From Nannocystis pusilla (GTDB taxonomy: Bacteria; Myxococcota_A; Polyangia; Nannocystales; Nannocystaceae): a stretch of 64,000 bases of DNA. Within the stretch, counting starts at the first letter, position 1; every line of letters starts with the position of its first letter. This document shows positions 8,801 through 60,494 of the stretch, piece by piece. The DNA lies in the NCBI RefSeq assembly GCF_026626665.1, contig NZ_JAPNKE010000002.1, positions 3,757,168-3,821,167 of the forward strand, read 5' to 3'. The notes beneath the pieces were generated by a model. It made no database searches and had not been told where the DNA came from. It was given only the letters and a program-made list of their open reading frames with translations. The translations under genes were made by a program, and so were the position numbers.

Positions 8801-8965
8801 GAGAACATGCCTCATGGGACATGCCCGTTCAGCCATCGCCGGCGCCGGGGCGCCCTGAACCAAGGAGCGAGCATGTCCCAAAGGCCATGCGGCCCCCTGC
8901 GGCCGCCGTCCTCGAGCCTCGTCGCCATGTCCGCACGAGCATGTCCTCAAGGACATGCTCCGAGG
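8801..8965. repeat. array of GGACATGTCC-family palindromic motifs (>=5 degenerate copies) between convergent gene ends
   Basis: The motifs GGGACATGCCC, GAGCATGTCCC and GAGCATGTCCTCAAGGACATGCTCCGAG are read directly. They lie between the 3' ends of 6947..8796(+) and 8985..10292(-). Confidence 0.7.
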
Positions 8966-8984
8966 GCCAGCCCGTGGCCCGCCG

Positions 8985-10292
8985 TCACCGACGGTGGATC
9001 GCCCCGCCCTTCATCACGAAGCGGACCTGCCGCAGCGCCCCGATCGAGCGCGTCGGGTCGCCCTCGACGGCGACCAGGTCGGCGAGCAGCCCGACCTTGA
9101 CCTGGCCGATGCTGTCGGCCAGGTGCAGCATCTTCGCGTTCACCGCCGTGGCCGCGCGCAGCGCCTGGACCGGCTTCATCCCGTAGTCGACCATCAGCTC
9201 GAGCTCGCGGACGTTGTCGCCGTGGCTGAACACCCCGACGTCGCTGCCGTTGCAGATCGGCACCCCCGCCTTGAGGGCCGCGCGGAAGGTGGCTCGCTTG
9301 TCGCGGATCGCCTGCGGCTCCGGGGCCGCGCCCTTCTTCCACCCGGCGTACTGCTGGATCGCGTCGGTCGCCGCCAGCGTCGGGCAGTAGTACACCCCGC
9401 GCTTGGCCATCAGTTTGAGAATTTCGGGCGTCCCGCCGTCGCCGTGCTCGATCGTCTCGGCCCCGGCCAGCACCGCGCGGCGCATCCCCTCGGGCGTGCT
9501 CGCGTGGACCACCACCGGCCGTCGACCGTCGCGCGCGGTCGCCACGATCCGCTCCATCTCCGCCTGCGAGAACGTCGGCAGCGCCTGGCCTCTCGGGCCC
9601 CACGAGTAATCGCCGTACACCTTGATCCAGTCGGCCCCGCGGGCGATCTGGCCGCGCACCACCCGGATCAGATCCTCGCCGTCGGCCTCCTCCGCGCCCT
9701 GCGGCACGTGCCACTCCGGCGCGAAGCCCTTCGGCGCGTACGTCCCGGTGGCGACGATCGCCCGCGTCGTCGTCAGCACCCGCGGCCCCGGGATGATGCC
9801 CTGCTGGATCGCCTGCTTGAGGCCGACGTCGGCCTCGGCCGCGCCCTCCGTGCCGAGGTCGCGCACCGTCGTGAAGCCGGCCAGCAGCGTCTCGCGGGCG
9901 TGGTTCGTCGCCCTCGCCACGCGCACCGTCAGCGGCTCGCGCAGCACCTGGTCGTTCCACGTCGTCTCGTCGTAGGGGTGCAGCAGCAGGTGCGAGTGCC
10001 CCTCGATGAGCCCCGGCAGCAGCGTCGTGTTCGGCAGCTCGACCACCTCGGCGTCGGCCGGCGCGCCGACCTGCGCCGCCGGCCCGACCGCGGCGATGCG
10101 CTCGCCGCGGACCAGCACCACCCAGCCCTCGCGCGGCTGCTCGCTCGCGCCCTCGAACACCCGCGCCGGGCGCAGCAGGTACGCCTTGGCGGGCGCCGGC
10201 GCCGGCGGCGGCGCGGCCGCGGCGAGGTCGGGCTGTCCCCAGAGACATGTGACTGCGAGCGCGAGGACGGCGAGGGCGGCGAGGCGGCGCAT
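8985..10292 (-). CDS. secreted metal-dependent amidohydrolase (imidazolonepropionase/Xaa-Pro-dipeptidase-like superfamily)
   Basis: Signal peptide [19 protein letters not shown]. Motifs [11 protein letters not shown] (HxH metal site) and ...HASTPEG...[12 protein letters not shown] fit the amidohydrolase fold. Start is codon 98 of the track ORF. Confidence 0.8.
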
Positions 10293-10354
10293 GACGGCCC
10301 GCGATCGTAGAACGATTGCCGCCCCCCGTCCATGTCCCGAGGGACAGCCGGCCC

Positions 10355-10876
10355 TCACTCGACCTCGAAGAGCTCGTCGTTCCACACCAGCTCGGCCTTG
10401 ACCGCGTCGACGGTGCCGTGGAACGACTCGCCCTCGGCCTCGGCGACGATCGCCCCGGCCTCGCAGGTGTAGGCCCCGCCGATCCCGTAGTCGCCGCTCT
10501 GGTACGCGAACTCGTCCGCGCTCTGGAACCGGACGCGGTCGGGGCAGGTCTCGACCGGCACGTCGTCGGGCTGCGGCCCGCACGGGTACTGCTTCTTCGA
10601 CACGAACTCCTTGCCGATCACGAACGCGCAGGCCTCGTCGAGCGGCGCCGTCGTGCTGCCGCTCGCGGTCCCGGTCGTCTCGTCCGGCTCGCCGGTGGAG
10701 GTGGGCTCCGTCGCGCTCGTCGTCGTCGTCGTCGTCGAGTCGTCACCGGTGGTCGCGCTGTCCGGCGCGGTGGTGCTCGAGGTGTCCGCGGTCTCGCTCT
10801 CGGTGCCCGGGTCGCTGCCCTTGTCGGTACACCCCGGGAGCGCCACGAAGAGGATCGAACAAGCCAAATACTTCAT
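10355..10876 (-). CDS. lipoprotein with Thr-rich linker
   Basis: [18 protein letters not shown] has a lipobox, followed by a T/S/D-rich linker and a small C-terminal domain. Confidence 0.6.
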
Positions 10877-13359: not shown

Positions 13360-13430
13360 CGGGACATGCCCTCCAGAGCATGTCCTAAAAACATGTTCTC
13401 CGACGCATGCCCTTCGGGACATGCCCCTCG
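13360..13430. repeat. array of GGACATGTCC-family motifs (5-6 copies, ~11-bp phasing) between convergent gene ends
   Basis: The sequence GGGACATGCCCTCCAGAGCATGTCCTAAAAACATGTTCTCCGACGCATGCCCTTCGGGACATGCCCCTCG is read directly. Confidence 0.75.
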
Positions 13431-25270: not shown

Positions 25271-25322
25271 ATCCTACTTTCCTTTCCGCATGAGGCGGAG
25301 AAGTTGGGCAAGACCCCCGTTC

Positions 25323-25355
25323 AAACCGTGCATGCGAATTTCCCGCACACGGCTT
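25323..25355 (-). other. group II intron domain V (catalytic hairpin)
   Basis: The minus-strand RNA AAGCCGUGUGCGG-GAAA-UUCGCAUGCACGGUUU is a 34-nt hairpin with the AGC triad and a GNRA-like loop. Confidence 0.8.
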
Positions 25356-25380
25356 ACCGGTGGTCTCTCGGGCCGTCGCA

Positions 25381-27299: not shown

Positions 27300-28046
27300 A
27301 TGTCCACCGCCAACGTCGCCGCCGATCACTACGAGCTGTACTACTGGCCGGGCATCCCCGGCCGCGGCGAGTTCGTGCGCCTCGTGTGCGAGGACGCCGG
27401 CGCCCCCTACCTCGACGTCGCCCGTCGGCCCGCCTCCGAGGGCGGCGGCGAGGCGGCGGTGGTCCGCGCGCTCGAGTCGCTGCCTGGCCTGCCCGCCTTC
27501 GCCCCGCCGCTCCTCCGCGCCGGCGAGCTGGTGATCGCCCAGACCGCCAACATCTGCGGCTTCCTCGGCGATCGCCACGACCTGTCCCCGGGGACAGAAG
27601 GCGGCCGCGCCGAGGCCATGCAGCTGCAGCTCACCGTCTCCGACCTCGTCGCCGAGGTCCACGACACGCACCACCCGATCTCCACCGCCCAGTACTACGA
27701 GGAGCAGCGCGACGCCGCCGCGCTGCGGTCCGCCGCCTTCCGCGACCAGCGGCTGCCCAAGTTCCTCGCCTACTTCGAGCGCGTCCTGCAGCGCAGCGGC
27801 GGCCCCTGGCTGCTCGGCGACGCCTGCAGCCACGCCGACCTGTCGCTGCTGCAGGCCCTGCTCGGCCTCGAGTACGCGTTCCCCCGCGCGTTCGCCCGCC
27901 AGGCCCGCCGCGTCCCCGAGCTGCTGCGCCTGCGCGACCGCGTCGCCGAGCGCCCGCGGATCGCCGCCTACCTGGCCTCGCCGCGCCGGCTGGCCTTCAA
28001 CGAGAACGGCATCTTCCGCCGCTACCCCGAGCTCGACCCGGCCTGA
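27300..28046 (+). CDS. glutathione S-transferase family protein
   Basis: MSTANVAADHYELYYWPGIPGRGEFVRLV is a GST N-terminal thioredoxin-like fold. Length ~248 aa. Confidence 0.8.
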   Translation: MSTANVAADHYELYYWPGIPGRGEFVRLVCEDAGAPYLDVARRPASEGGGEAAVVRALESLPGLPAFAPPLLRAGELVIAQTANICGFLGDRHDLSPGTEGGRAEAMQLQLTVSDLVAEVHDTHHPISTAQYYEEQRDAAALRSAAFRDQRLPKFLAYFERVLQRSGGPWLLGDACSHADLSLLQALLGLEYAFPRAFARQARRVPELLRLRDRVAERPRIAAYLASPRRLAFNENGIFRRYPELDPA

Positions 28047-28062
28047 ACGCAGTCGGCTCGCG

Positions 28063-28101
28063 TGCATGTTCTTGAGGACATGTCCTGAGAGACATGTCCA
28101 T
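28063..28101. repeat. GGACATGTCC motif x3 (GCATGTTCTTGAGGACATGTCCTGAGAGACATGTCCATCG) between convergent genes
   Basis: Read directly from the sequence. The palindromic copies can pair as hairpins. Confidence 0.8.
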
Positions 28102-29974: not shown

Positions 29975-30157
29975 GGCGCAGCGCTGCGACATGTCTTCAC
30001 GGACATGTCCCATTCGCCATATCACGGCCCGCGCGCGCGGCTGATGAATCGCCACCGACCCGCGAGCGCGTCGTCTCCGCGACCGCGAACACCGGTCCGC
30101 CCGCCGACTGCACCTCGCTTTCTCCCACCCCGCTCCGCCTCGTATCATTCGCGGCGC

Positions 30158-31297: not shown

Positions 31298-31930
31298 TCA
31301 GGTCGGCCGCCGGCGCGGCGCTCCGGACATGTCCTTCAGGCCAGGTTCATCCCGCGGCACCAGCGCGACGCGCACCAGCTGCAGCTCGCCGCGGTGCGCC
31401 GCGAGGAAGCGGACCAGGCGGTCGAAGCGGCGGTGATCGCCGCCCTGCCGCGACCACGGCACGTCGACCCGCAGCGTCGCCGGCCCCGTCCACGCCAGCC
31501 GCGCGTCGGGCTCGACCAATCGCACCGCCGCCACCGCGAGCTCGCTCGGCTGGCGCAGCACCAGCTCGACCTTGCCGAACCACACCGCCCCGTGCAGCAG
31601 CCACGGCTTCAGATCGCCGACCGGCACGGGATAGCGGGCGATCCGGCGCCGCAGCCAGACGTCGGCCGCGACCTCGCGGGCGACCGCGCTGCGGGCCAGC
31701 GCGACCACGTTCCACAGCAGGAACGCCGCGAACAGCTGCGGCACCATGGCCACGCCGAACACGACCGCGGTGAACACCCCCGCCACGCGCGCGGCGCCCC
31801 AGAACTCGTGCGGCGGCCCAGGCTCGGCCCAGGCCGGCAGCCCCTCCCGCAGCGCCCGCTCGAGCGCGGTCTCGACGAAGCTGCGATACGGCTCGCGGGC
31901 GACGGGGGGCTGTCCTTCGAGCGCACGCAT
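31298..31930 (-). CDS. hypothetical protein
   Basis: Track ORF with good GC3 and internal TM-like segments. The C-terminal tail overlaps a GGACATGTCC motif, so the true stop may be earlier. Confidence 0.4.
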   Translation of the reverse strand: MRALEGQPPVAREPYRSFVETALERALREGLPAWAEPGPPHEFWGAARVAGVFTAVVFGVAMVPQLFAAFLLWNVVALARSAVAREVAADVWLRRRIARYPVPVGDLKPWLLHGAVWFGKVELVLRQPSELAVAAVRLVEPDARLAWTGPATLRVDVPWSRQGGDHRRFDRLVRFLAAHRGELQLVRVALVPRDEPGLKDMSGAPRRRPT

Positions 31931-35471: not shown

Positions 35472-35498
35472 CCACATGTCCTCCTGGACATGTCCCGA
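35472..35498. repeat. GGACATGTCC motif x2 (CCACATGTCCTCCTGGACATGTCCC) between convergent genes
   Basis: Read directly from the sequence. Confidence 0.8.
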
Positions 35499-35613
35499 GT
35501 ATCACCCCACCGCGCGCGCCCTCACGGCGTCACGCTCACGCACCTGTCGGGTCGGGACACCCCACCACCGCCTCGACCTGTCCCGCAGGACACGTCGCGG
35601 TCCCGCCCGGCGC

Positions 35614-37100: not shown

Positions 37101-37200
37101 GGCGCGAGCGCGACGCGCCGGCGCCCGCGCTCGCATCTGTCCTTCGAGACAGCCCCGGCCGTCGCCTGGCCTGTCTCTCGGGACATCTGCCGCGGCGCGC

Positions 37201-37845: not shown

Positions 37846-38127
37846 GTGTCCTCCCTCGGGGTTACCCGGTCGCGTCGCGCGATTGGGGGCACTTTGCGTC
37901 CGCCAGACGTGCTCGCGGTATAGTCAATCCGCGCCGCCCTCGCAACGCGCCGCAGCGAACGGTCGCCCGTCCGCCCGTGCGCCGCGTCACGCCGCAGCGC
38001 GCGCGAATCGCCGGCCGGCGAGGCATGTCTCTTCGGCCAGCTCATCGGATAGCGCGGCGCCCGTCGGCGCGGGCGCGGCTCGCAACCTGTCCCCGCGGAC
38101 ATCCGCGAGCCGCGCCCGGCGTCGGCC

Positions 38128-42706: not shown

Positions 42707-44136
42707 GGGAGGGTTTCCTTTCTCTGTCTCGAAAGCAGCCGGCGGGTCAATCCCGCCTGAGCTCTTCCGGACGAACTATTGGTTGGTAGTCCCGGGTAGG
42801 CAAAGCTACGGTGTGGTGAAGCGCAAACGACGAAGACGTCCCATTCCGCGATACCCCCCTCTACGAGGCCTTGCAGCCGCGAATTCAGGGAATTGCCGGG
42901 GTCCCGCGGACCCGGCGGGGCGCGCGAGGAACCGCTCGAACAGGCACGATTTCCGCCGCCGCGGCCGCCTCGCCCACTGCTATCAATGTCGTCCGCCTGC
43001 CGCGGCCGTCCGCCGCGCCGGAGTCGTCCGCGCCTGCGCGATATCGAATGCCGCGAGCGATCGATCGCGCGAATATGACAGTACATCGCCCCGGCGATGT
43101 ATCTGACAGCGCACCCGACATTGCCGCGACCGGGCGACGATATCACGAACGGTTTATCAAACATCGCAGCGGCCCGCCCTGCCCGCGGCCCGTCTTGTCC
43201 TTCGCCTCATGCCGCGCGCCCCATGCCCGTCGTGCGCTCGCGCGGCGGACTCTCGATATCCGCCTGGTCGTCACCTCGCTGGGGCTCGCCTCGCGCGACC
43301 GTCGTCCGTCGCAAGCCTGCAGCTGCCCGTCCAGGGTCGTGCGCGTGAACCCGAGCCCTGCTCGCGTCACGCCGGCCGCCTCGTCGCCGCTCCCACCGGC
43401 CAGCCGCCGGGAGGAGCCGTGCGCGGCAGCCGACGTCGCCGGCGCGTCCCGCCCGACCGCGCACCCGCGAGCGAACGCCTGCGAGCGCGACGGCGCCGGT
43501 CGTCCGGCGTCGTCACGCCGAGCCCGACGCGCTCGCTACCTCGCCGCGCGCTACCGATGAGCCGCGTACCGCTTCGACATCCGCCGGCCCGGGTCGCGGC
43601 GCGCAGCGCCGCAGCCACCCCTCGCAGCGAAGATGTCGCCCGGGACACGTCCAATCAACATGACCTTATGCACATGTCCTTCCGGACATTCATACGCCCG
43701 CGGCCGACCGAGCGCCCACGCCGATGCGAGCAGCGCTCACGGACGCAGCGGACCGCGCTAGCGCCCGCGCCGCGAGCGTCGCGCTCGCACGAGCCACGGC
43801 AACGCCAGCAGCAGCCCGCCCGCGCCGTCATCCTGCTGTGAGTCTGCATCGTCGCCGGTAGCGACAATCGCCGCGACCGCCCGGCTCCGCCCCCGCGCAG
43901 GTCCGCATCGTCCATGACGGCGATTCATCACTCCGTACTGCCGACAATCGCTCCACCCGCCGCCCCGCCATCCCCGACCGCCGCGATTCATCCTGGGACG
44001 TCTCCCCTCGCATCCTACCGGCGCGCTCTGCCGCCCTCGGACGCGACCATGCACGTCAGACCTGTCCCATGAGCCAGCGTCCCCTGCGCGGACGAGCGAG
44101 CCCGCCGGCGCGCCATCGGCCGACCTGCCCTCTCGC

Positions 44137-44337
44137 TCAGCCCTCCGCCGCGCCCGGCCCTTCATGCTCCCAGCGCACGATCGGCCGCCCGTGCAGCGGC
44201 AGGCGCGTCCCGCGGTTCTCGCATTGCGGGCAGCGCAGCGCCTCCGGCGTCGGCATCGGCGCGCACGCGCTGCCGCGGCCGGCGGTCACCTGCACTTCGG
44301 GACAGCCGCACCGCGGGCACCTCGGCGCCTCGCTCAC
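44137..44337 (-). CDS. 66-aa zinc-ribbon protein (CPRCGC...CPQCE), translationally coupled to rSAM/SPASM gene
   Basis: The GTG start overlaps the TGA stop of the upstream gene (GTGA). GC3 is high. Two CxxC pairs lie 30 residues apart. Confidence 0.6.
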   Translation of the reverse strand: MSEAPRCPRCGCPEVQVTAGRGSACAPMPTPEALRCPQCENRGTRLPLHGRPIVRWEHEGPGAAEG

Positions 44338-45287: not shown

Positions 45288-46799
45288 CACCAGCTTGCGC
45301 GGCCCCTGCGACGCGCGCACCCGCTGCTCGAACGTCCAGCGGAACTTCTCCAGCAGCTCGGCCGGCACCGTCGCCCCGGTCGGCGCCCGCTGGAACCGCG
45401 GCCCCCAGTCGCCGTCCTCCGGCGGCGGCGCCAGCGGCAGCGACCGGGCCAGCCGCGTGCCCGGCAGCGGCGTCGCGAACTGCACCGCCGGCCACGCCTT
45501 GAACCTGTCCCACAGATCCAGCGCGAAGCTCAGCGTCTGATTGATCTCCGCCGCCGACTCGCCCGGCTGACCGATGATGTAGTGGATCATCAGCGGCACG
45601 CCGGCCGCCGCCGCCGACTCCGCCGCGCGCACGATCGCCGCCAGGTCGAGCCGCTTGCCGACCACCTCGTCGACCACCCGCTGCGATCCGCTCTCGGCGC
45701 TGACGCTGAGCGTCGTGATCCGCCCGCGCATCGCCTGCAGGTGCCGCGGCTCGAGGTAATCGGCGCGCAGCCCGTTCGGCAGCTCGAAGCGCAGGCCCAG
45801 CGCCTGGATGTCCCCCAGGACATGATCGAAGTGCGCCGGGTGGACGTTGATCAGCTCGTCGAGCACGAACACCCGCTCGGCCCCGTGCTCGCGCGCCAGC
45901 GCCGTCAACAGCTGCGCCAGCGACGTCCGCGAGTGCCGCCGCTGCGTCTTCGGCCGGCCCGCCGCCACGTCCGGGTTCGAGCTGCAGTGCGCGCACTGGA
46001 ACGGGCACCCGCGGCTCGTCACCGCCGGCAGCGTGCGGCCGTCGATCGGGAACGCCCAGCCGCCGCGGCCGAGCCCGCGGACCACCGCCGCGCGGAACTC
46101 GTGGTGCGCCTCGAGGTCGACTTTGGACCATGCCGGAACGGGCAGGTCCTCGAGGACAGGTTGCTCCCCGCGGTGGAGCCCGCGCGGCGCCGGCCCGCCG
46201 GTCAAGTACGCCTGCAGCAGCGCCGGCACCGTCACCTCGGCCTCGAACTGCACGTACGCGTCGGCCTCCGGGTAGCTGGCGAGCAGCTGCGGCGCCGCCA
46301 CGTAGTGCTGCCCCGACTGGTAGCAGTCGGCCAGCACGATCGGCACCGCCGCCCCGTGGCGCGCCCGCAGCCCGGCGAGGAGGTCGGCGAGGAGGTCGTC
46401 GCGCGCCGGCGGCCGGTGGAACGGCGTGACCGCCACCACGATCGCCACGGCCGAGCCTGGGCACGCCGCCAGAGTCGCCGCGACCGTCGCCCCCAGGTGC
46501 GCCCGCCCGTCGCTGCGCCACGTCATTCCCGACGCCGCGTGACGCACCTCGCCCGGCGAGTCGTCCGCCTCGTTCGCGCCTCGCAGCCCGCTCGCCCGCC
46601 CGTCCGCCGCGTCTACGCCCCGCGGCGTCGTCAGCCTCGCCGGCAGCGCGTACGCGTCGACCAGGTCGCACTCGATCCCTCGCGCCTCGAGCACCGCTGC
46701 CAGCTGCACCGCCCCGAGGTCGACGAAGTACGGGTAGTCGATGAAGTCCCGCGCCACCGACACGGGCGGATGGACGACGAGGACGCGGCCGGGGCGCAC
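45288..46799 (-). CDS. B12-binding-domain radical SAM protein
   Basis: An N-terminal B12-binding domain (RVLVVHPPVS...DLVDAYAL) precedes an rSAM core with CPFQCAHCS. A GTG start at ~46799 is in frame. No stop separates it from the downstream rSAM/SPASM gene, so the 3' boundary is uncertain. Confidence 0.7.
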
Positions 46800-46857
46800 G
46801 GCCGGCGACGTTAGCACGCTTGCGGCCTGCGCGGGGCGCCGGGTACATTGCCCCGGA

Positions 46858-48783
46858 ATGGACGCTCTCCCCGCCACCGCGGTGCAGCACGAAGAGGCGG
46901 CGCACGAGCGGCGCAACTGGGTCCGGCTGACGTTCGACTGCAACGACCGCTGCGTGTTCTGCCTCGACGCCCACACGCACGACGGCACCAACCGCGACCG
47001 CGACGAGATCAAGGCCCAGATCCTCGACGGTCGCCGGCGCGGCGCCACCCGCCTCATCCTCTCCGGCGGCGAGCCCACCATTCACCCCAACTTCGTCGAC
47101 TTCGTGCGTCTCGGGCGGCGCGCCGGCTATCGCAAGATCCAGACCGTCACCAACGGCCGCATGTTCGCCTATCCGGCCTTCCTGCGGGCCGCCCTCGACG
47201 CCGGCCTCAGCGAGATCACGTTCTCGATCCACGGCCCCAACGCCCGGATCCACGACGCCCTCGTCGGCACCAAGGGCGCCTTCGACGAGGAGGTCAAGGG
47301 CCTGCAGGGCGCGCTCGCCGACGGTCGGCCGGTCGTCAACATCGACGTCTGCGTCAACCGCGGCAACGTCAAGCAGCTGCCCGAGCTCATGGCCACCTTC
47401 ACCGCCATGGGCGTGCGCGAGTTCGACCTGCTGCACGTCATCCCGTTCGGGCGCGCCTACAGCGAGGGCCGCGAGATCCTCTTCTACGACCTCGAGGCCA
47501 TGCGGCCCTACCTGCTGGAGGCCTTCGCCTACGCGCGCAAGCCCGGCATCCACGTCTGGCTCAACCGGTTCCCGCCGCAGCACCTCGAGGGCTTCGAGGA
47601 CCTGATCCAGGACCCGCACAAGCTGATCGAGGAGGTCCGCGGGCGCAAGGAGGAGTACGCGCTGCTGCTCGAGCACGACATCCCGCTCGACTGCCGCGCC
47701 CCCGAGCGCTGCAAGCACTGCTACTTGCAGCCGCTGTGCGACCGCCTCGACGACGTCCGGGCCGACCTCGCCGGCCAGGCCTTCGCGGTCCTGCGCGTCG
47801 ACGCCGGCGCCGACCGGCACGCCCCCGTCGCCTACGGCGGGGACCCGGCCAGCCGCCAGCACGCCGCTGCCCGCCTGCGCCGCGTCCTCGCCGAGCGGGC
47901 CCTCGCCGCCGGTCCCTCGGGACATGTCCCCGAGGACAGCGAAGACGCGTGGGCCGGCACCGCCGACGAGGCCGCCGCCGCGATGGCCGAGGCCCGCGCG
48001 GCAGCGCCGCTCGCCCCGCCGCGCCGAATCCGCCTGCCGCTGCTCGGCGCCGGCCCCTCGCTCCCGGCCGCCCCCGCGCGCCCGCGCCTCGACGCCCGCG
48101 CCCTCGCGGCCGCCGCCAAGCCCCGCGCGCTGTGGCTGCTCGCGCCCGACCTCGCGGCCGCCGAGGCGCTCGCCGCCGAGTTCCCCGACGTCCCCGAGCT
48201 CGAGCTCGAGCTGGCCGACCCGGCCGCCCTCCTCGCCCGCCTTTCGGACATGTCCGCCACATCATGTCCCGAAGGCCAGCCGATCACGATCGCCGGCAAG
48301 CGCCTCGCCCGCGTCGTCGTCGCCGACCCGGCCGCCGCGGCCGCCCTCCTCGACCTGAACCTCGACCTCGACGTCGTCCTCCTGCTCTCGCGCGCCGCCG
48401 AGCCGTGGCTGCTCGCGCTGGACCGCGCCCCCCCGCGCCTGGTCCTGCGCCAGCCCGCGCGCGAGCGTCTGACCGAGTCCGCCGAGCTCGACCTCGACCT
48501 CGTGCCCTTCTTCGCCGCCTTCCGCCACCCCGTCCCCGTCGAGGCCGTGCCCGCCTGCGTCCTCGGCCGCCCGCCGCGCGAGCGCCCCTCGGTGTTCGAC
48601 GCCGCCCAGCTCGGCCCCGACGGCGGCCTCGAGATCTTCCGCTACGCCCGCCGCTTCATCGACGACGGCTTCCACGTCAAGAGCCTGCGCTGCAAGACAT
48701 GTTCGTACGACCATGGCTGCAAGGGCATGCACATCAACTACGTGCGCGCCCACGGCTTCGCCGCCATGCGACCTGTCCCCTGA
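46858..48783 (+). CDS. radical SAM protein with ~300-aa C-terminal extension ending in a Cys-rich motif
   Basis: WVRLTFDCNDRCVFCLD is the CxxxCxxC motif, then GGEPT and a MoaA/PqqE-like core. The C-terminus reads ...LRCKTCSYDHGCKGMHINYV. The gene is divergent from the B12-rSAM operon. Confidence 0.8.
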   Translation: MDALPATAVQHEEAAHERRNWVRLTFDCNDRCVFCLDAHTHDGTNRDRDEIKAQILDGRRRGATRLILSGGEPTIHPNFVDFVRLGRRAGYRKIQTVTNGRMFAYPAFLRAALDAGLSEITFSIHGPNARIHDALVGTKGAFDEEVKGLQGALADGRPVVNIDVCVNRGNVKQLPELMATFTAMGVREFDLLHVIPFGRAYSEGREILFYDLEAMRPYLLEAFAYARKPGIHVWLNRFPPQHLEGFEDLIQDPHKLIEEVRGRKEEYALLLEHDIPLDCRAPERCKHCYLQPLCDRLDDVRADLAGQAFAVLRVDAGADRHAPVAYGGDPASRQHAAARLRRVLAERALAAGPSGHVPEDSEDAWAGTADEAAAAMAEARAAAPLAPPRRIRLPLLGAGPSLPAAPARPRLDARALAAAAKPRALWLLAPDLAAAEALAAEFPDVPELELELADPAALLARLSDMSATSCPEGQPITIAGKRLARVVVADPAAAAALLDLNLDLDVVLLLSRAAEPWLLALDRAPPRLVLRQPARERLTESAELDLDLVPFFAAFRHPVPVEAVPACVLGRPPRERPSVFDAAQLGPDGGLEIFRYARRFIDDGFHVKSLRCKTCSYDHGCKGMHINYVRAHGFAAMRPVP

Positions 48784-48866
48784 GCCATGCGCTCGCCCGC
48801 CGCCGCCACGCTCGCCGCTCGGCCAGGCCAGGCCCGTTCACCGCGCCGCCCGGCCCGCAGGAGCTC

Positions 48867-50920
48867 GTGACGCGCGCGTTGCCACCTCCGGCTCGGCGCC
48901 TGCAAGCGGCGCTCGACGCCGGCGACCTCGACGCTCACGACCCGCGCCTCGGCGCCCGCGGCTCCCTGCTGCGCGCCGTCGCTCTCGCTCGCCACGGCCG
49001 CCTGGCCCAGGCCCGCGCGGCGGCCGAAGCTGCCCTGAAGGACAGACCCGACGACGCCGCGGTCGCCCTCGCCGCCGCCGCCGTCTTGCGCGCCACCCAC
49101 GACTATCAGCGCTGCCTCGACGCCCTCGCCGCCGCCGCCCGGGCCGCCCCCGCGGCCACCCGCGCCGCGGCCACCCGCCTTGTCGGCTACGCCAGCGCCC
49201 TCGGCTGGGAGCGCGAGGTCGCGGCCGCGATCGCCCTCGGCCGCGCCGCCGACCCCACCGACCCGACCTGGGACGCCTTCGAGGCCCAGCTGCACCTGCG
49301 CAGCGGCGACCTCGAGCTCGCCATCGCCGCAGCCCGCCGCGGCCTGCAGCGCGCCCCCGAGTCGGCCAAGCTGCGCATGGAGCTGGCGGCCGCGCTGGCC
49401 CGCGCCGGCCACGATCACGACTGCGCCATCGAGGTCGCCGCCGCGGTCCGCCTCGCCCCCGCCGACGACGCCGCCTTCTACCACCGCGCCGCAGCGTTCG
49501 CCCTGCTCGAGACCGGCGACCTCGCCGGCGCCGCCCGCCACGGCGAGGCCGGCCTGCGCCTGCGACCCGACGATCCTGCGCTCGCCCTCGCCCTCGCGGA
49601 CATGTCCCTGTGGACAGGCGATCGCGCCGGCGCCCTGGCCCGCGCCGAGGCCGTCCCCGGTTCGCGCGGCCGCGCCGGGGCCTGCCGGATCCGCGGCCAG
49701 CTCTGCTCGCGGAGGGCGACGTCGACGCCGCCCTCCGTGAGCTCGAGCTCGCCTGCTCGGTGCCCGACCCCGCCGCCGAGCTGTCGCGCGCCGAGGCCCT
49801 GATCCGCCTGGGCGCGTGGGAGCCCGCCCACGCCGCGCTCACCCGCGCGACCGCGATCGGCGACGGCTACCTGTTCGCCGCCTGGATGCTGCGCTTCCTC
49901 GCCGCCGCCGGCGAGCGCCCGGCCCCCGACGCCCCCGTCAATCCGCGCCAGATCGAGGAGTTCGCCGAGGCCCTCGCCGAGGTCTCCCCGCACGGCCCGG
50001 CCGCGCTGGCCGCCGACCGCCAGGGCCCGCTGGTCGACGCCACCCGCGACGCCCTCGCGCGCATGGGCTGCAACCGCTCCGCCTTCGCCACCTATCACGA
50101 CGGACATGTCCTTCGGCGCCTGTCCACGAGGACAGGTGTTCGCCACGCCTCGCGCCAGGCGCTGCAGACCATCCGCAGCGCCGACCCGGCCCGCGCCCTC
50201 GCCCTGCTGGACGCCGCCTGCGCCCGCTGGCCGCGCTCCTCGCTGCCGCTGGCGCACCGCGGCGAGCTGCGGATGTGGCTCGGCGACGACGCCGGCGCCC
50301 GCGCCGACCTCGAGGCCGCCATCGCCATCAACCCGCGCACCCGCTGGGCCTACGTCGGCCTCACCCTCCTGGCCCAGAGGACAGGCGACCCCGCCGGCGC
50401 CCTCGCCGTTTCGGCCGCCGGCATCGCCCAGATGCGCGGCACCGTCGGCCCGGCCGTCTACGCCCACCGCGCCGGCGCCAGGGCGGCCACCGGCGACCTC
50501 GCGGGCGCCCTCGCGGACCTCGAGCACGCCGTCGTCAGCCACCCGGCCCGGATCGGCGCATGGGTCGAGCTCGGCCTGACCTACGCGGCCGCCGACGACC
50601 AGGCCGGCCTCGTCCGCGCCTTCGACCACCTCCGCGCCCACGCCCCCGGCCTGGTGTCCGACGCCGCCGCGGCCGTGCAACGACCTGCCTGGGGAGACAT
50701 GTCCTTCACGCCATGCTCCGAAGACCAGGCGACGATCCTCGCCGAGGCGCTGGCCATGGTCCGCGGCAACCGCTCCTCGACCTGCGTCACCTACGTCACC
50801 CGCGCGGGCCAGCTCCGCACGGTCCCCCACGGCCCCGCCGCGGCTCACCCGATGACGCGCATCGACGCCGACCTCACCGGCATCCGCACCATGCTGCTCC
50901 GCTCGCTCGGCGCGAGCTGA
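48867..50920 (+). CDS. TPR-repeat protein (frameshift ~49712)
   Basis: Multiple 34-aa TPR-like helical repeats (...AHDPRLGARGSLLRAVALARHGRLAQARAAAEAAL...). The N-terminal half lies in the frame of ORF 46848..49802 and the C-terminal half in the frame of ORF 48713..50920. Confidence 0.65.
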
Positions 50921-55995: not shown

Positions 55996-56052
55996 GCGGA
56001 GAGCCGCAGATGAACGCCGACAGGATCATCGGCGCGCAGGCCTGATCATTGT

Positions 56053-56080
56053 CGAGACATGTCCGCCCGGACATGTCTCG
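56053..56080. terminator. perfect inverted repeat CGAGACATGTCCG-CC-CGGACATGTCTCG built from two GGACATGTCC-type motifs; putative bidirectional terminator between convergent genes
   Basis: The two 13-nt arms are exact reverse complements. It lies between the 3' ends of 53893..55995(+) and 56088..56672(-). Confidence 0.6.
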
Positions 56081-56087
56081 CCGATCG

Positions 56088-56672: not shown

Positions 56673-57053
56673 GATCGATCGGAAAGATGGCGACGGTCGG
56701 CCGGGCGGCACCTCAATTTCCATTGATGTGACTCGAACGACGTTCGCCTGGCAAAGCCCGCCAAACCAGCATCCGTGCGTGATTTCGGGAAAAATCGGCC
56801 GCGGCGGCGAGCGGCGGCGCGCCGTGATCGCGACCACGGTCCGTGCCCACATTCGCGGTCAATGCATGCACTCGCCGCCGCCGCCCCGTCGGCGCATTCC
56901 TTCGCTCACGGGCGCGCCGCCCGGCTCGGCGAGCGCGACGCGGGCTGGCGGCGAGCGAGGCCCGAGGCGACGGACATGTCCTTTCGCGCATCTTGGATGA
57001 CGCCGGCCGCTCCGCACCCGACCGCCAGGCCCGCGGCTCCGTCTTGACCGCGC

Positions 57054-58884
57054 TCAGCGCAGGCGGTGCTCGAGCCGCTGCGCGGTGTCCTCGAGGACCG
57101 CGCGGTGCTCGGCCGGCACGAACTCGATCTGGCGGCGCAGGTACGGCAGGAGCTCCGAGTTGGGCAGCTCGCTGATGGCGGTGCTGGCGACCTTGACGAA
57201 CGGCTGCTCGCCCTCGCGGAGGCGGTCGCACAGGAAGTCGAGCGCCTCGACGCTGCCGATCTTGCCGATCGCAGTCAGCGCAGCCTTGCGGGCCGCCTCC
57301 GGGTCGGGCAGGTCGCGGGCCTCGAAGATCCGGCGCAGCGGCTCGAACGCGTGGGGGAACACCAGCCGCTCGACCGAGGCCGCCGCGGCCTTGCGGACCG
57401 GCGCGCTCGGGTCGCGCAACGCCTGCGACACCAGGCCGAAGCTGCGCTTGAAGCGGAGCGCCCCCATCGCCGCCGCCACCGACTCGCGCAGCGACGCGTC
57501 GCCGTGGCGGTACATCGCCTCGAGGCCGGCGATCACCGGGTAGGCGCGGACCACCGCCAGGCTCTTCACGATCTCGAGCGGCGGCACCGCCTGCCCGCGG
57601 CGCTCGAGCTCGAGCACCAGCAGCAGCGCGTGGCGGCGCACGTAGTCGGGGAAGCGGCGGTCGGCCATCACGCCGGCGGCCACCAGGGCCGGGTCGCCGC
57701 CGAGCTCCCACTCGGCCAGGTCGACGTACCAGACCTCCTCGTAGTCGGCGCTGGCGCAGGAACTCGGGTACCGGCATCGGCCGCGGCGCGTCCTGGGGCC
57801 CGTCGCCGAGGCGACGGATCAGCCGCAGCGCGCGCTCGCGGTTCTTGGCCGGCAGGTCGAGCGTGGTGATCTTGCGGTACGACTCGGCGACCTGGCGGAA
57901 CGCCCGCACCGACGCGAACGCCTCGGCCGCGGCCAGGCACGCGTTCTCGATGATCTGCGGCGGGTGGCCGGCGGCCAGCGCCTCGGTCGCCGCCTTGATC
58001 CACGCCTCCGCGCTGCGCCAGCGCAGGTCGTCGGCGTACGGCAGGCCCGAGCGGGTGCAGTAGTCGGCGGCCTCGCGCAGGATCGACGCCACCGCGTGGA
58101 ACTCGCCGGCCTCGCGGGCCATGGCGATGAACGTCTCGTACAGGCGCAGCGCGTCGAGCTTGAGCCCGTCGTCGCGGAGGATCCGGACGCTGTTGAGGTA
58201 GCCCTCGGCCACGTTCTCGAACGCCCGCGTCTCCGAGCCGAGGCGGGCGATCAGCTGGTAGCAGTCGAACGCGCGCTCGCGCAGGCCCTCGCTCTCGAAC
58301 GCGTCGGCGACCTCCTCGACGCTGGTGGTCGCGTCGGCGATCGCCTGCCGCGCGCGCTCGTGGCCGAGGCGGCGCAGGCACAGCGCGTAGTTGATCTTCA
58401 TCAGCGCGCGCTCGTAGTCGCGGTCGACCAGCGCGTCGCCGGCCAGCATGCGGGCCCACAGCTGCGACGCGGCCGCGTCGTCGCCCGCGCGCTCGAGCGC
58501 GATCGCCCGGTGCACCGGCATCCCGCCGAGCTCGAACCACGAGGCCGCCGGGCGGTGCTGGCCCGCGCGCGACAGATAGATCGCGTACAGGCGCACCGTG
58601 CGGATCGCGTCGGCGTCGCCGGCCTGGGCCCGCTGCGCGTACAGCCGCATGATGTCGGGCCCCGGCATCTCGCGCGCGCCGAGGTACGACAGGCAGGCCA
58701 TGCCCTCGCCCCAGTTGCCGGTCGCGCGCAGCGAGTCGACGTAGGCGCGCAGCCACTCCTCGTACTCGAAGTCGATGCGGTCGACCACCTGGACCAGTTG
58801 GCGCAGGTAGATCTGGGCGTCGGCGTGGCGGCCGGCCCGCAGCGCCCCCTCGGCGCGGATCCACAGCACGTTGGTGTCGATCAC
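57054..58884 (-). CDS. TPR/HEAT-repeat protein, last gene of MoxR-vWA operon (frameshift ~57745)
   Basis: The N-terminal ~380 aa (TPR-like helices) lie in the frame of ORF 56713..60822 and the C-terminal ~230 aa (HEAT-like) in the frame of ORF 57054..57683. The GTG start overlaps the vWA stop (GTGA). Confidence 0.6.
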
Positions 58885-60494
58885 CGCCGCCTCCGCCCCT
58901 GTCCCTTCAACCCTGTCCCGACGGACATGGTCTTCGGGGCACCCGTCTTGCGCCGGGTCGGCTGGGCCTGGCGATGGCCGGCCTCGACGTCGCTGATGAT
59001 CTGGCGGGCGCGCTGGGCCCGGCGGCCGTGGCTTATCGCCTGGTCGTCGATCACGTGCACGCGGTAGAACAGGTCGAGGTAGCCGAGGTCGAGCACGCCC
59101 GAGCTCGGCAGGATGAACACCCCGTAGATCGGCGCGCGCGCGGCCAGGGCGGCGACGTCGTCGGGCGGCAGCTGGCACTCGCCGTGGGTCAGCAGGTAGA
59201 CCAGCACCTTGCCGCCGCCGCCCCCGCCCGAGCGGCGCGGGGCCGACAGCTCGGCGTTGATCTGGCGGATCACGCGGGCGTAGTTGCGGCCGTGCTCGGC
59301 GCGGAACTGCAGCACGTAGGGCACCTCGGCGTGGCCCTGCGCGCCGACCTTGACGCCCTCGTACAGGCGGCTGTCGAAGAAGCGCAGGATCACGTGCTCG
59401 CCGAGCAGCGCCAGCCGCTTGCACAGCGCCAGCGCCAGGCCGCGGGCGAACACCTCCCGCACCCCGCGCATCGACGCCGAGCCGTCGACCAGCACGTAGT
59501 GGGTGCGGTGCTCGTTCTCGACCTGCTTCTCGTGGGTAAAGTAGAACAGCTCGTCGTCGATGAACTTCTGTTCGAAGATGTCTTCGTCGTAGGCGAGCTG
59601 CGACAGCTCGAGGTCGTCGACCCCGCCGAAGCGCTCGATCGACGCGTAGCCGTCGATCGAGAACACCTGCTGGCCGGCCTCGCGCTTGACCTCGAGGATC
59701 GACGGCAGCAGCTCCATCGAGAAGTCGATCACGTCGGCCAGCGCCGGGCTGACCATCACGTTGTAGAGGTCGGCCAGGTCGACGCCCGCGGCCGCCTCGC
59801 CGGGCCCGCCGCGGAACAGGCCGAACAGGCGCAGCGCGTCGACGTCGATCTGCTCGACCGCCAGCAGCGGCAGGAGCCGATGCGTCGTCAGCGTCTGCAG
59901 CCACGCGATCGTCTGCCGCTGGTCGTAGCGGGTGTACGCCGAGCTCGGCTCGACCTTCGCGTAGTGGACCGCGTCGACCGGCAGCTCGATCGGCCGCAGC
60001 ACCCGCACGTCGTCGGGCAGCTGCGGGACCACCGGCGCGAACACCCGCGCCAGGACCACGCCGATCATCTGGTCGCGGTGCTTCCAGCCGGCCTGCGCGC
60101 GCACCAGGTCGCTCTCGCCGAGCTCGACGAGCAGCCCACGCCAGGCCTCGCACAGCTCCGACTCGGCGATGCCCTTGACCACCGGGCCGGGGCCGCCCAG
60201 GCCCGTGATGAGACAGCCGAGGTCGTGCAGGATCACCAGCGGCACGGCCACGCCGAGGCGCGCCAGGATCCCCTGCCACACCAGCGCGCGCATCATCGCC
60301 AGCGCGCCGGCGCCGTCGATCTGCGACAGCGCCAGGCTGCCGACCTGGCGCTCGAGCTCGGCCACGTTGGGCGTCACCCGCGGCGCCTGGGCCTGGCCGC
60401 CCGCGGCGGGCCGCGACGTCCGCGGCGCCGGTGGCTGAGGCGGGGCCGCGCGCGGCGGCGGGGGCTTGCGGACGTCGGCCATGGAGGCGGGCAC
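58881..60494 (-). CDS. von Willebrand factor A (vWA) domain protein
   Basis: The MIDAS motif HYVLVDGSASM is present. Length 537 aa. The gene lies directly downstream of the MoxR ATPase. Confidence 0.8.
   Translation of the reverse strand: MPASMADVRKPPPPRAAPPQPPAPRTSRPAAGGQAQAPRVTPNVAELERQVGSLALSQIDGAGALAMMRALVWQGILARLGVAVPLVILHDLGCLITGLGGPGPVVKGIAESELCEAWRGLLVELGESDLVRAQAGWKHRDQMIGVVLARVFAPVVPQLPDDVRVLRPIELPVDAVHYAKVEPSSAYTRYDQRQTIAWLQTLTTHRLLPLLAVEQIDVDALRLFGLFRGGPGEAAAGVDLADLYNVMVSPALADVIDFSMELLPSILEVKREAGQQVFSIDGYASIERFGGVDDLELSQLAYDEDIFEQKFIDDELFYFTHEKQVENEHRTHYVLVDGSASMRGVREVFARGLALALCKRLALLGEHVILRFFDSRLYEGVKVGAQGHAEVPYVLQFRAEHGRNYARVIRQINAELSAPRRSGGGGGGKVLVYLLTHGECQLPPDDVAALAARAPIYGVFILPSSGVLDLGYLDLFYRVHVIDDQAISHGRRAQRARQIISDVEAGHRQAQPTRRKTGAPKTMSVGTGLKGQGRRRR

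What the first reader, a model, noticed from the sequence alone, without database searches (positions are those of the whole stretch)
8801..58940. Genome-wide-style palindromic element GGACATGTCC in phased arrays at gene 3' ends
The self-complementary 10-mer GGACATGTCC occurs exactly at least 9 times, at ~28073, 30002, 31325, 35486, 47926, 48243, 49606, 50103 and 56978. One-mismatch versions (GAGCATGTCC, GGACATGCCC, AGACATGTCC, GGACAGGTC) occur more than 30 times. In a ~70% GC sequence fewer than 0.1 exact copies are expected. Copies occur as 2-6 tandem units with ~10-12 bp (one helical turn) phasing. They sit almost always in short intergenic spacers at gene 3' ends, especially between convergent pairs: 8796/8985, 13303/13440, 28046/28127, 35470/35614, 37100/37201 and 55995/56088. 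Adjacent copies form perfect long hairpins, for example 56053-56080. This looks like a REP/BIME-like element family, or a bidirectional terminator or nucleoid-protein binding array specific to this lineage. The core coincidentally equals the eukaryotic p53 half-site RRRCATGYYY.
Basis: seen in the sequence. Interest (0 to 1): 0.8.

Follow-up and report, generated by a model that had tools for sequence, protein, structure and literature searches.

The report
Nannocystis-specific phased palindromic repeat family
The window comes from a Nannocystis (myxobacterial) chromosome that carries thousands of copies of a tiny, previously undescribed palindromic repeat (TGTCC-N4-GGACA, often abutted in strict 14-bp register), sitting mainly just after gene ends much like the REP/BIME repeats of E. 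coli; what it does is inferred, not shown.

Summary
GGACATGTCC occurs exactly 9 times (0.03 expected). However, the basic unit is the 14-nt dyad TGTCC-N4-GGACA: 15 exact copies in the window (0.05 expected) and 24 with one mismatch (1.6 expected). Phasing is strictly 14 bp, not 10-12. The family is essentially confined to Nannocystis/Nannocystaceae, at about 2-2.5 exact units per 10 kb, which extrapolates to thousands per genome. Units occupy 55% of convergent spacers and 26% of tandem spacers (usually nearer the upstream stop). They are almost absent from short divergent (promoter) spacers (1 of 55). They also occur inside genes, at about nine times the chance rate. In a three-taxon test free of ascertainment bias, the arms are more conserved between species than their flanks, while the loops drift. 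Covariation between arms is significant but small. There is no U-tract, no strand bias and no G·U tolerance, and isolated units are only weak hairpins. Best reading: a new lineage-specific REP/BIME-like dyad element, read in a sequence- and spacing-specific way by an unidentified factor and marking gene ends. Pure terminator, selfish-element and uptake-sequence readings remain possible. No RAYT could be tested for. No literature was found.

The parts
8803..8826 (.). Two phased junction 10-mers (GAACATGCCT catg GGACATGCCC), 7 bp after the stop of ORF 6844-8796(+).
8869..8960 (.). One-mismatch unit at 8874 plus a 3-unit array at 8923-8960. The array includes the exact dyad at 8942 and the perfect arm pair GAGCATGTCC/GGACATGCTC. 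It lies 25 bp before the stop of the amidohydrolase gene 8985-10583(-).
   Evidence: fold -23.5 kcal/mol, z -3.9
10333..10346 (.). Isolated exact unit TGTCCcgagGGACA, 8 nt downstream of the stop of gene 10355-10876(-).
13362..13426 (.). 5-unit array in the convergent spacer 13303/13440.
   Evidence: fold -27.3 kcal/mol, z -3.8
28062..28099 (.). 3-unit array in the convergent spacer 28046/28127. It is present but partly deleted in Nannocystis sp. RBIL2.
29987..30024 (.). 3-unit array 13 bp after the stop of gene 29009-29974(+). It is conserved in RBIL2.
31325..31348 (.). Exact 10-mer plus a one-mismatch unit at the 3' end of ORF 31298-31930(-). Identical in RBIL2.
35472..35495 (.). 2-unit element (exact dyad at 35477) 2 bp after the stop at 35470. 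The arms are kept and the loop varies across three species (tcct, tcgg, tccg).
35574..35597 (.). Exact dyad at 35579 next to the stop of gene 35614-36360(-). It is the second, separate element in the same convergent spacer.
37138..37185 (.). Two one-mismatch units (cTGTCCttcgAGACAg and cTGTCTctcgGGACAt) in the convergent spacer 37100/37201. In N. bainbridge these two units flank an extra ~1-kb gene.
38088..38101 (.). Isolated exact unit 27 nt downstream of the stop of gene 38128-39129(-). The arms are conserved in N. bainbridge and the loop differs (ccgc vs ttgc).
43629..43693 (.). 5-unit array (exact dyad at 43675) in the poorly annotated stretch 42.7-44.3 kb.
56055..56078 (.). Perfect 10+4+10 hairpin element (AGACATGTCC gccc GGACATGTCT) in the convergent spacer 55995/56088. 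The orthologous hairpin is kept in N. exedens and N. bainbridge through different compensated changes.
56972..56981 (.). Lone exact junction 10-mer in the spacer 56852/57054.
27583..27596 (.). Exact unit inside the GST-like gene 27222-28046(+). Conserved in RBIL2 apart from one loop change.
34320..34333 (.). Exact unit inside gene 33628-34614(-). Twenty bp are identical in N. bainbridge while the flanking codons diverge.
45804..45827 (.). Unit (exact dyad at 45809) inside the radical-SAM gene 44334-46799(-).
47911..47938 (.). Units in the inter-domain linker of the radical-SAM gene 46741-48783(+). N. bainbridge has 5-6 additional unit-bearing ~52-bp segments at this position.
48246..48278 (.). 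Exact 10-mer plus a one-mismatch unit inside the same radical-SAM gene. Conserved in N. bainbridge and N. radixulma.
49598..49621 (.). Three half-sites (GGACATGTCC ctgt GGACA) inside the TPR gene. Conserved, loop included, apart from single arm changes in N. bainbridge and N. radixulma.
50102..50139 (.). Run of five half-sites inside the TPR gene (exact dyad at 50121).
50681..50718 (.). 3-unit degenerate array inside the TPR gene.
58895..58932 (.). 3-unit array (exact dyad at 58914) overlapping the 3' end of ORF 58881-60494(-).
7321..7334 (.). Exact isolated unit in the uncertainly annotated region 6.5-8.8 kb.

Best explanation
This is a Nannocystaceae-specific, very abundant family of short dyad-symmetric repeats that works like the REP/BIME elements of enterobacteria.

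Anatomy:
- The unit is TGTCC-N4-GGACA, with extended consensus sC-TGTCC-yNNr-GGACA-Gs.
- Units either stand alone or abut with zero spacing. Abutting creates the GGACATGTCC junction and the strict 14-bp register.
- Two or more abutting units can pair as 10-bp-stem hairpins.

Proposed mechanism: a trans-acting factor reads the dyad in a sequence- and spacing-specific way, either as duplex DNA or as an extruded or single-stranded hairpin. The elements are kept just downstream of stop codons, where they act symmetrically, in both directions, as gene-end boundary elements. Candidate roles are 3'-end hairpins or roadblocks, mRNA 3' protection, or a topological or nucleoid site.

Shown here: the family, its anatomy, its taxonomic range, its positional bias, the constraint on arms with free loops, the small covariation, and the turnover of unit number between species.

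Inferred only: the existence and identity of the factor, the boundary function, and how new copies arise. Occasional slippage duplication is seen. Insertion next to existing units is a conjecture.
For: - Over-representation: 15 exact dyads against 0.05 expected, and 24 one-mismatch against 1.6, in the window. There are 19 multi-unit arrays against 0.4 expected.
- Exclusive geometry: the N4 spacing occurs 230 times, against 4, 0 and 1 for N3, N5 and N6. Junction spacing is always 0.
- Lineage restriction: ~90% of 103 genome-scan loci are Nannocystis/Nannocystaceae. Density is 2.0-2.5 exact units per 10 kb in five cultured species and in the window, 0.6-1.0 in more distant Nannocystaceae MAGs, and about 0 elsewhere.
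- Position: 55% of convergent spacers are occupied, 26% of tandem spacers (closer to the upstream stop in 52 cases against 24; median 47 bp), and 1 of 55 divergent spacers under 250 bp.
- Constraint, from the three-taxon design that avoids ascertainment bias: intergenic arms 90.5%, flanks 73.4%, loops 53.6%; coding arms 92.9%, flanks 86.9%.
- Pairing: compensated cells 61 against 36.1±5.2, with 0 of 500 shuffles reaching that. Perfect non-consensus hairpins number 12-13 against 2.8 expected. The orthologous hairpin at 56055 is kept through different compensated changes in three species.
- Recognition rather than stability: isolated units are weak hairpins (z about -1), yet their sequence and spacing are conserved. 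The flanking C/G preference shows no covariation.
- Symmetry: no loop strand bias and no T-tract, and no G·U preference.
- Turnover: unit number differs between species, both in spacers and in a coding linker.
Against: - No partner protein was identified.
- Only 17-20% of arm deviations are compensated, and the commonest variants are uncompensated, including mid-stem ones. So pairing is at most a secondary constraint.
- Conserved copies inside genes are not predicted by a pure gene-end function.
- The conservation test rests on only 22 distinct sites (5 intergenic) and is pseudo-replicated across species triples.
- Gene maps for most loci come from my own crude codon-bias predictor, which called only 78% of the DNA as coding. 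Some 'intergenic' DNA is therefore really coding.
- All loci except the window and L104-L106 were chosen because they contain an array. The seeded arrays were excluded, but local clustering could still inflate densities.
Confidence: 0.45

Rival explanations
1. Factor-independent RNA hairpins. The units are simply the preferred sequence for bidirectional, U-tract-less terminators or 3'-end mRNA stabilisers. Only the RNA structure matters, and no sequence-specific reader is involved.
For: - The units sit just after stop codons and are enriched between convergent genes.
- Multi-unit arrays fold strongly (-14 to -27 kcal/mol, z -2.4 to -6.6).
- Covariation is significant, and the 56055 hairpin is kept by compensated changes.
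- Convergent spacers without units often carry unrelated long perfect hairpins.
- Canonical terminators are not above chance in this genome, so some other 3'-end signal is needed.
Against: - Isolated units, the commonest form, are weak hairpins no better than shuffles in a 72% GC background.
- There is no G·U over A·C preference on the transcribed strand: 23:21 and 17:19.
- Most deviations are uncompensated, including mid-stem ones.
- Loop length is fixed at 4 (230 against 4, 0 and 1), although hairpins tolerate loops of 3-8 nt.
- The arm sequence itself is conserved across thousands of sites.
- Zero of 117 arrays have a T-tract.
- Copies inside genes are under extra constraint.
Confidence: 0.2
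2. A selfish, non-autonomous mobile element: a REPIN-like hairpin mobilised in trans by a RAYT or other HUH transposase. On this view it has no host function and is merely tolerated at gene ends. Abutting arrays would arise because insertion targets existing units.
For: - Copy number runs to thousands per genome.
- Many copies are decayed.
- Unit number differs between species at orthologous spacers, and units have expanded inside a coding linker. Nineteen units in other species lie in insertions relative to the window.
- The pattern is DNA-level and symmetric, with conserved sequence plus some pairing. That is what a hairpin-specific HUH enzyme would impose.
- The vertical, lineage-specific distribution resembles REPIN-RAYT systems as described in PMC3116915 and bioRxiv 10.1101/2021.07.10.451892 (abstracts only).
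Against: - Arms are more conserved than flanks at orthologous sites, including inside genes, and 41 of 51 window units are retained in other species.
- Loops are essentially random among copies, so there is no recent copy-paste signature.
- There is no GTAG/CGTC head.
- At 14 nt the unit is much shorter than known REPs.
- No RAYT homologue turned up in 0.95 Mb of Nannocystaceae DNA, though that covers only a small fraction of any one genome.
- No clean empty-site/filled-site pair with target duplication was seen.
Confidence: 0.2
3. A short word kept by 'molecular drive' or linked to modification. Examples would be a DNA uptake sequence, like Neisseria DUS which is often paired as terminators, or a HIP1-like highly iterated palindrome tied to a methyltransferase or repair system. 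It would be maintained genome-wide at the DNA level.
For: - It is abundant, lineage-specific and strand-symmetric.
- It occurs in coding DNA at about 9 times chance and is conserved there beyond the flanking codons.
- Arrays carry a CATG core.
- The pairing of DUS as inverted repeats at gene ends is a known precedent (my own knowledge).
Against: - The strict N4 and zero-spacing geometry, and the alternating half-site runs, are not expected for an uptake word.
- There is 10-20-fold enrichment at 3' ends relative to coding DNA.
- Isolated units lack the CATG.
- Neither competence nor a cognate methyltransferase could be examined.
Confidence: 0.08
4. Operator sites of a conventional dimeric transcription factor, that is, a large regulon.
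For: A 5-N4-5 dyad with strict spacing and a free spacer is typical of sites for helix-turn-helix dimers.
Against: - Units are virtually absent from short divergent (promoter) spacers (1 of 55) and lie after stop codons.
- There are thousands of sites per genome.
- Arms covary.
Confidence: 0.03
5. A compositional or chance artefact, or a repeated protein-coding motif.
For: None beyond the high GC content and the presence of copies in ORFs.
Against: - Dinucleotide and Markov-1 shuffles give 0.03-0.05 exact copies, against 9-15 observed.
- Coding copies lie in different reading frames.
- Most copies are intergenic.
Confidence: 0.01

Closest known systems
REP/BIME elements (and REPIN-RAYT systems) of Enterobacteria and Pseudomonas
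   Same: - High-copy, lineage-specific, vertically inherited short palindromic repeats.
- They lie mostly after gene ends and between convergent genes, and avoid promoters.
- They occur singly or in clusters of alternating symmetry.
- They can form hairpins, and copy number varies between relatives.
   Different: - The unit is only 14 nt (5-bp arms, 4-nt loop), against 20-40 nt for REPs.
- The arms are fully symmetric, so a unit has no orientation.
- There is no GTAG/CGTC head.
- Units abut with zero spacing in a strict 14-bp register, rather than in BIME or REPIN architectures with specific linkers.
- Loops are unconserved.
- No RAYT was found, though this was not properly testable.
Rho-independent (intrinsic) terminators, including U-tract-less 'I-shaped' hairpins proposed for high-GC bacteria
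   Same: The position just downstream of stop codons. Multi-unit arrays form stable GC-containing hairpins, and their symmetry makes them bidirectional.
   Different: - No U-tract (0 of 117).
- The stem sequence is conserved genome-wide.
- Isolated units are weak hairpins.
- No G·U tolerance.
- Conserved copies occur inside genes.
HIP1 (GCGATCGC), the highly iterated palindrome of cyanobacteria
   Same: A very short palindrome that is hugely over-represented in one lineage. It is present in both coding and non-coding DNA, is conserved beyond neutral expectation, and has an unknown function (my own knowledge).
   Different: HIP1 is a contiguous 8-mer scattered mostly through coding DNA. It has no spaced dyad, no phased arrays and no 3'-end bias.
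Neisseria DNA uptake sequences (DUS) paired as inverted repeats
   Same: An over-represented short word, often found as inverted pairs forming hairpins after genes and also inside genes. It is family-specific (my own knowledge).
   Different: DUS is a non-palindromic 10-12-mer whose pairing and spacing are variable. Here the spacing is invariant and the runs alternate strictly.
Eukaryotic p53 response element (RRRCWWGYYY pairs)
   Same: The junction 10-mer GGACATGTCC is a perfect p53 half-site, and the arrays resemble tandem half-sites (literature).
   Different: This is a coincidence of sequence only. The bacterial unit is the spaced dyad, the spacing is a fixed 4 bp, and no p53-family protein is involved or known in bacteria.

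Membership tests
REP/BIME (REPIN-RAYT) | High-copy extragenic palindromic repeat concentrated at gene 3' ends and between convergent genes | tested here: met
   55% of convergent spacers, 26% of tandem spacers and 1 of 55 short divergent spacers are occupied. Density is about 2-2.5 exact units per 10 kb.
REP/BIME (REPIN-RAYT) | Imperfect palindrome of about 20-40 nt with a conserved GTAG or CGTC tetranucleotide at the hairpin foot | tested here: not met
   The unit is 14 nt. In 117 isolated units the flanks show only a C/G preference and no GTAG/CGTC.
REP/BIME (REPIN-RAYT) | A cognate RAYT (Y1 HUH transposase) gene in the genome, typically flanked by the REPs | tested here: inconclusive
   tblastn with E. 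coli RayT against 0.95 Mb of Nannocystaceae DNA found nothing. The single weak hit is a methyltransferase. This sample is only a small fraction of any one genome, and no whole-genome scan was possible.
REP/BIME (REPIN-RAYT) | REPIN or BIME architecture: inverted REP pairs separated by specific linkers | tested here: not met
   Units abut with zero spacing in a strict 14-bp register.
REP/BIME (REPIN-RAYT) | Recent copy-paste signature: near-identical copies that include the loop | tested here: not met
   Loops are essentially unconserved among copies. Adjacent loops are identical in 7 cases against 2.8 expected.
Intrinsic (Rho-independent) terminator | Stable GC-rich hairpin | tested here: inconclusive
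   Arrays meet this (z -2.4 to -6.6). Isolated units do not (z -1 to -1.9).
Intrinsic (Rho-independent) terminator | U-tract immediately 3' of the hairpin | tested here: not met
   0 of 117 oriented arrays have TTTT within 15 nt downstream.
Intrinsic (Rho-independent) terminator | Transcripts end at the element | not testable with these tools
   No RNA-seq or Term-seq data were available.
Structured RNA element | Pairing maintained through G·U wobble and compensatory changes on the transcribed strand | tested here: inconclusive
   Compensation is significant but small (61 against 36 cells). There is no wobble preference (23:21 and 17:19). No Rfam family matches.
HIP1-like highly iterated palindrome | Contiguous short palindrome spread through coding and non-coding DNA without positional bias | tested here: not met
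   The element is a spaced dyad with 10-20-fold enrichment at 3' ends.
DNA uptake sequence (DUS/USS) | Preferential uptake of DNA that carries the word | not testable with these tools
   This needs transformation or uptake assays.
CRISPR array | Direct repeats of 23-50 nt separated by unique spacers of similar length | tested here: not met
   The period is 14 bp with 4-nt spacers, and the half-sites are inverted rather than direct.
Transcription-factor operator regulon | Sites located in promoter regions | tested here: not met
   Only 1 of 55 short divergent spacers is occupied.

The most novel reading that the evidence does not exclude
Nannocystaceae have a dedicated, lineage-specific system in which a dimeric protein, or a filament-forming one, reads TGTCC-N4-GGACA dyads at thousands of gene ends and at selected intragenic sites. 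It polymerises along abutting half-sites in 14-bp register (three units equal exactly four helical turns). In this way it would define transcription-unit or topological boundaries across a 12-Mb chromosome. That would be a sequence-encoded genome 'punctuation' mechanism with no described bacterial counterpart.
Probability: 0.2. Interest if true: 0.85.

Novelty: new variant of a known kind. Interest (0 to 1): 0.6.

Why it matters
If confirmed, this adds Myxococcota to the few lineages with a genome-wide short palindromic repeat system, and it has an unusually simple and rigid grammar: a 5-bp half-site with alternating 0/4-bp spacing.
- Because the arms are constrained even inside genes while the loops are free, it is a tractable case for asking whether such repeats are host signals, domesticated mobile DNA, or both.
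- It gives an immediate handle for finding the reader protein, by DNA-affinity capture with a 14- or 24-mer.
- It could help with annotating transcription-unit ends in Nannocystis, a genus mined for natural products.
- It could help with designing terminators or insulators for myxobacterial synthetic biology.
- It provides a genus-specific genotyping marker.

Tried and rejected
1. I first treated the 10-mer as the unit. I dropped this once half-site spacing analysis showed that TGTCC-N4-GGACA is commoner and often isolated.
2. UUCG-tetraloop/RNA idea. TTCG is the top loop, but it shows no strand bias relative to transcription (6:6) and there is no wobble preference.
3. Tandem-duplication origin. 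Neighbouring units share no excess of direct changes (12.1% against 12.0%), and identical adjacent loops are only slightly in excess.
4. 'Hypermutable loops'. This was suggested by 63% loop identity against about 90% for other intergenic DNA. The baseline was inflated by unannotated coding DNA, and with local flanks as control the loops are not different overall. A residual hint remains at 5 intergenic sites.
5. My pairwise conservation tests were biased because units were ascertained in one of the two species being compared. I replaced them with the three-taxon design.
6. MFE comparison of spacers does not discriminate at 72% GC.
7. RAYT search. The one weak tblastn hit (L017) is a methyltransferase. 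Recurrent similarity among the fetched loci is plain synteny, not a partner gene.
8. Viral scan. It found one contig with a single array, which is uninformative.
9. An exact-sequence lookup of a window protein found no record.
10. Literature searches for the 10-mer, the dyad, Nannocystis palindromes and myxobacterial REP/RAYT found nothing relevant.
11. No association was seen between the units and the group II intron at 25.3-27.2 kb.

Full report
**1. Checking the observation**

The exact 10-mer GGACATGTCC occurs 9 times in the window, against 0.03 expected from dinucleotide-preserving shuffles. With up to one mismatch there are 21 sites against 1.6 expected, so there are 12 one-mismatch copies, not the '>30' claimed. 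True starts are 28076, 30001, 31325, 35486, 47920, 48246, 49598, 50102 and 56972. The window is about 72% GC throughout.

A PWM built from neighbouring units finds 47 units at >=9 bits against 8.4 expected, and 24 at >=10 bits against 3. Units chain into 19 multi-unit arrays against 0.4 in Markov shuffles.

The spacing between units is not 10-12 bp. It is strictly 14 bp. In the window plus 95 related loci, spacings of 14/28/42/56/70 bp occur 309/98/73/26/12 times, against 3 at 13 bp and 0 at 15 bp.

**2. Where the window comes from, and the taxonomic range**

I scanned one genome per bacterial and archaeal species for the double unit GACATGTCC-N4-RGACATGTC. About 90% of them come from Nannocystis (N. 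exedens, N. bainbridge, N. radixulma, N. punicea, strain RBIL2 and MAGs) or other Nannocystaceae. The remainder are scattered singletons.

Two loci are orthologous to the window: RBIL2 at 92-94% identity and N. bainbridge at 85-89%. The window is therefore a Nannocystis chromosome segment. Its genes are ordinary chromosomal ones.

With the seeded arrays excluded, density is 2.0-2.5 exact units per 10 kb in every cultured Nannocystis species and in the window. It is 0.6-1.0 in more distant Nannocystaceae MAGs and about zero in the unrelated hits. Extrapolated to 11-13 Mb genomes, that is roughly 2,500-3,000 exact units, and about 5,500-8,500 recognisable units when one-mismatch copies are included. 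This is an extrapolation, not a count.

**3. Anatomy: the unit is not the 10-mer**

Half-site analysis shows that the tail-to-tail arrangement TGTCC-N4-GGACA (230 exact copies) is commoner than the head-to-head 10-mer (159 copies). It also often stands alone: 106 isolated copies, against 19 isolated 10-mers. Other spacings are essentially absent: N3 4 times, N5 0 times, N6 once.

In the window there are 15 exact dyads against 0.05 expected, and 24 with one mismatch against 1.6.

In 130 kb of unbiased sequence, the commonest form is the single dyad (22 of 54 runs). Longer runs add half-sites in strict alternation.

The extended consensus of isolated units is sC-TGTCC-yNNr-GGACA-Gs. There is no GTAG or CGTC head, and the flanking C/G pair does not covary. 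The 4-nt loop is essentially unconserved.

**4. Position relative to genes**

I used a codon-bias gene predictor of my own, plus NCBI gene calls for L104-L106. Seeded spacers were excluded.
- Units occupy 55% of convergent spacers.
- They occupy 26% of tandem spacers. There they are closer to the upstream stop in 52 cases against 24, with a median of 47 bp after the stop.
- They occupy only 1 of 55 divergent spacers shorter than 250 bp.
- Convergent spacers often hold two separate elements, one hugging each stop codon (for example 8803 and 8923, 35472 and 35574, 37138 and 37172).
- Copies inside genes occur at about 0.27 per kb (170 units at up to one mismatch in about 634 kb of predicted coding DNA). 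That is roughly nine times the genome-wide shuffle expectation of about 0.03 per kb. They lie in different reading frames.

**5. Structure or sequence?**

Multi-unit arrays fold into strong hairpins. For example, 56048-56085 gives -23.4 kcal/mol with z = -6.6. Isolated units give only about -8 to -9 kcal/mol (z -1 to -1.9), and at 38088 the minimum-energy fold does not even use the unit.

Covariation between arms is statistically clear but small.
- On 150 non-seeded two-unit elements, compensated cells number 61 against 36.1±5.2, with 0 of 500 shuffles reaching that value.
- 17-20% of deviations are mirrored, against 12% expected. Perfect non-consensus 10-bp hairpins number 12-13 against 2.8 expected.
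- At one orthologous site (56055), three species keep a perfect hairpin through different compensated changes.

Against a purely structural reading:
- Most deviations are uncompensated, including mid-stem ones.
- There is no G·U over A·C preference on the transcribed strand: 23:21 in tandem spacers and 17:19 in genes.
- Loops show no strand bias, and 0 of 117 arrays have a T-tract.
- Canonical terminators are not above chance in the window.
- Loop length is invariant, although hairpins would tolerate loops of 3-8 nt.

Convergent spacers without units often carry unrelated long perfect hairpins. Some hairpin at gene ends therefore seems to be general in these genomes.

**6. Evolution**

Window units are mostly retained in other species: 41 of 51 are kept at up to one mismatch. 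At the same time, 19 units in other species lie in insertions relative to the window.

Unit number differs between species in the 35.5-kb spacer. It differs strikingly in the inter-domain linker of a radical-SAM gene, where N. bainbridge has 5-6 extra unit-bearing ~52-bp segments. Occasional slippage duplication is visible.

My first conservation tests were biased, because units were ascertained in one of the two species being compared. I replaced them with an unbiased three-taxon design: the unit is ascertained in species X, and identity is measured between two other species, Y and Z.

| Context | Arms | Flanks | Loops | Distinct sites | Observations |
|---|---|---|---|---|---|
| Intergenic | 90.5% | 73.4% | 53.6% | 5 | 21 |
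| Coding | 92.9% | 86.9% | 86.5% | 17 | 72 |

The nominal p-values are overstated because the observations are pseudo-replicated. Even so, arm divergence is only a third to a half of flank divergence. The arms are constrained and the loops are not.

**7. Partner search and literature**

tblastn with E. coli RayT against 0.95 Mb of Nannocystaceae DNA found nothing real. A viral scan was uninformative. Rfam has no matching family. Literature searches found no description of the 10-mer, the dyad, or any REP/RAYT system in myxobacteria.

**8. Interpretation**

The combination of features is best explained by a REP/BIME-like, lineage-specific dyad element. Those features are a conserved arm sequence, an invariant geometry, free loops, a small pairing signal, DNA-level symmetry, gene-end placement with promoter avoidance, constraint at orthologous sites, and variable unit number.

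On this reading the element is read sequence-specifically by an unidentified factor and acts symmetrically at gene ends (confidence about 0.45).

The rivals are:
- pure RNA hairpin terminators or stabilisers (0.2);
- a selfish RAYT-type mobile element without host function (0.2);
- an uptake or HIP-like word (0.08);
- a conventional regulon (0.03);
- a chance or compositional artefact (0.01).

The element fails the formal REP membership criteria that could be tested (head tetranucleotide, size, REPIN architecture). I therefore classify it as something that works like REP/BIME, not as a member of that family. It is a new variant of a known kind.

Noticed in passing
window 25263-27209 (minus strand): A group II intron. 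Rfam families RF00029, RF02003 and RF02005 match above their gathering scores, and there is a reverse-transcriptase-sized ORF at 25381-27282(-). A weak two-unit 'array' at 26711-26734 lies inside the intron and may be a chance match.
   Followed up: partly
window ~49703 (TPR gene 48.9-50.9 kb): A 1-bp deletion relative to N. bainbridge and N. radixulma. It splits what is a single 685-686-aa TPR gene in those species into two reading frames. This is either a pseudogene or a sequencing error. It lies about 90 bp downstream of a conserved intragenic unit.
   Followed up: yes
window 55995-56050: The short stretch between the S9 peptidase stop and the 56055 hairpin looks like the fused remnant of a ~285-aa methyltransferase gene. 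That gene is intact at this position in N. exedens (L104 12103-12960) and N. radixulma (L106 12103-12957).
   Followed up: partly
window 29046-29723: About 680 bp inside ORF 29009-29974 have no counterpart in the otherwise 92-94% identical locus of Nannocystis sp. RBIL2 (L068). This is an indel within or next to a gene.
   Followed up: no
L026 (N. bainbridge), opposite window 37100-37201: N. bainbridge carries an extra ~1-kb gene between two units that lie side by side in the window's convergent spacer.
   Followed up: partly
L104 2112-6750 (N. exedens): IS66-family genes and a reverse-transcriptase gene occupy the position upstream of the S9 peptidase. In the window, N. bainbridge and N. radixulma that position holds the radical-SAM/radical-SAM/TPR block, so synteny is broken here.
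   Followed up: no
L011 4634-5346 (N. exedens utg4): A 133-bp tandem repeat of about 5 copies at 79-86% identity. Each copy carries one TGTCC-N4-GGACA unit. I did not determine whether it is coding or non-coding.
   Followed up: partly
window 44334-50920: Two divergently transcribed radical-SAM genes followed by a TPR gene form a block that is conserved in N. bainbridge and N. radixulma. The block is unusually rich in intragenic units, and the linker of the second radical-SAM protein varies in length between species (680, 681 and 747 aa).
   Followed up: partly
window-wide, five intergenic unit sites with three-species coverage: Intergenic unit loops appear to diverge faster than their immediate flanks (53.6% against 73.4% identity). 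This could mean that exposed loop bases are mutation-prone, but with so few sites it may be noise.
   Followed up: partly
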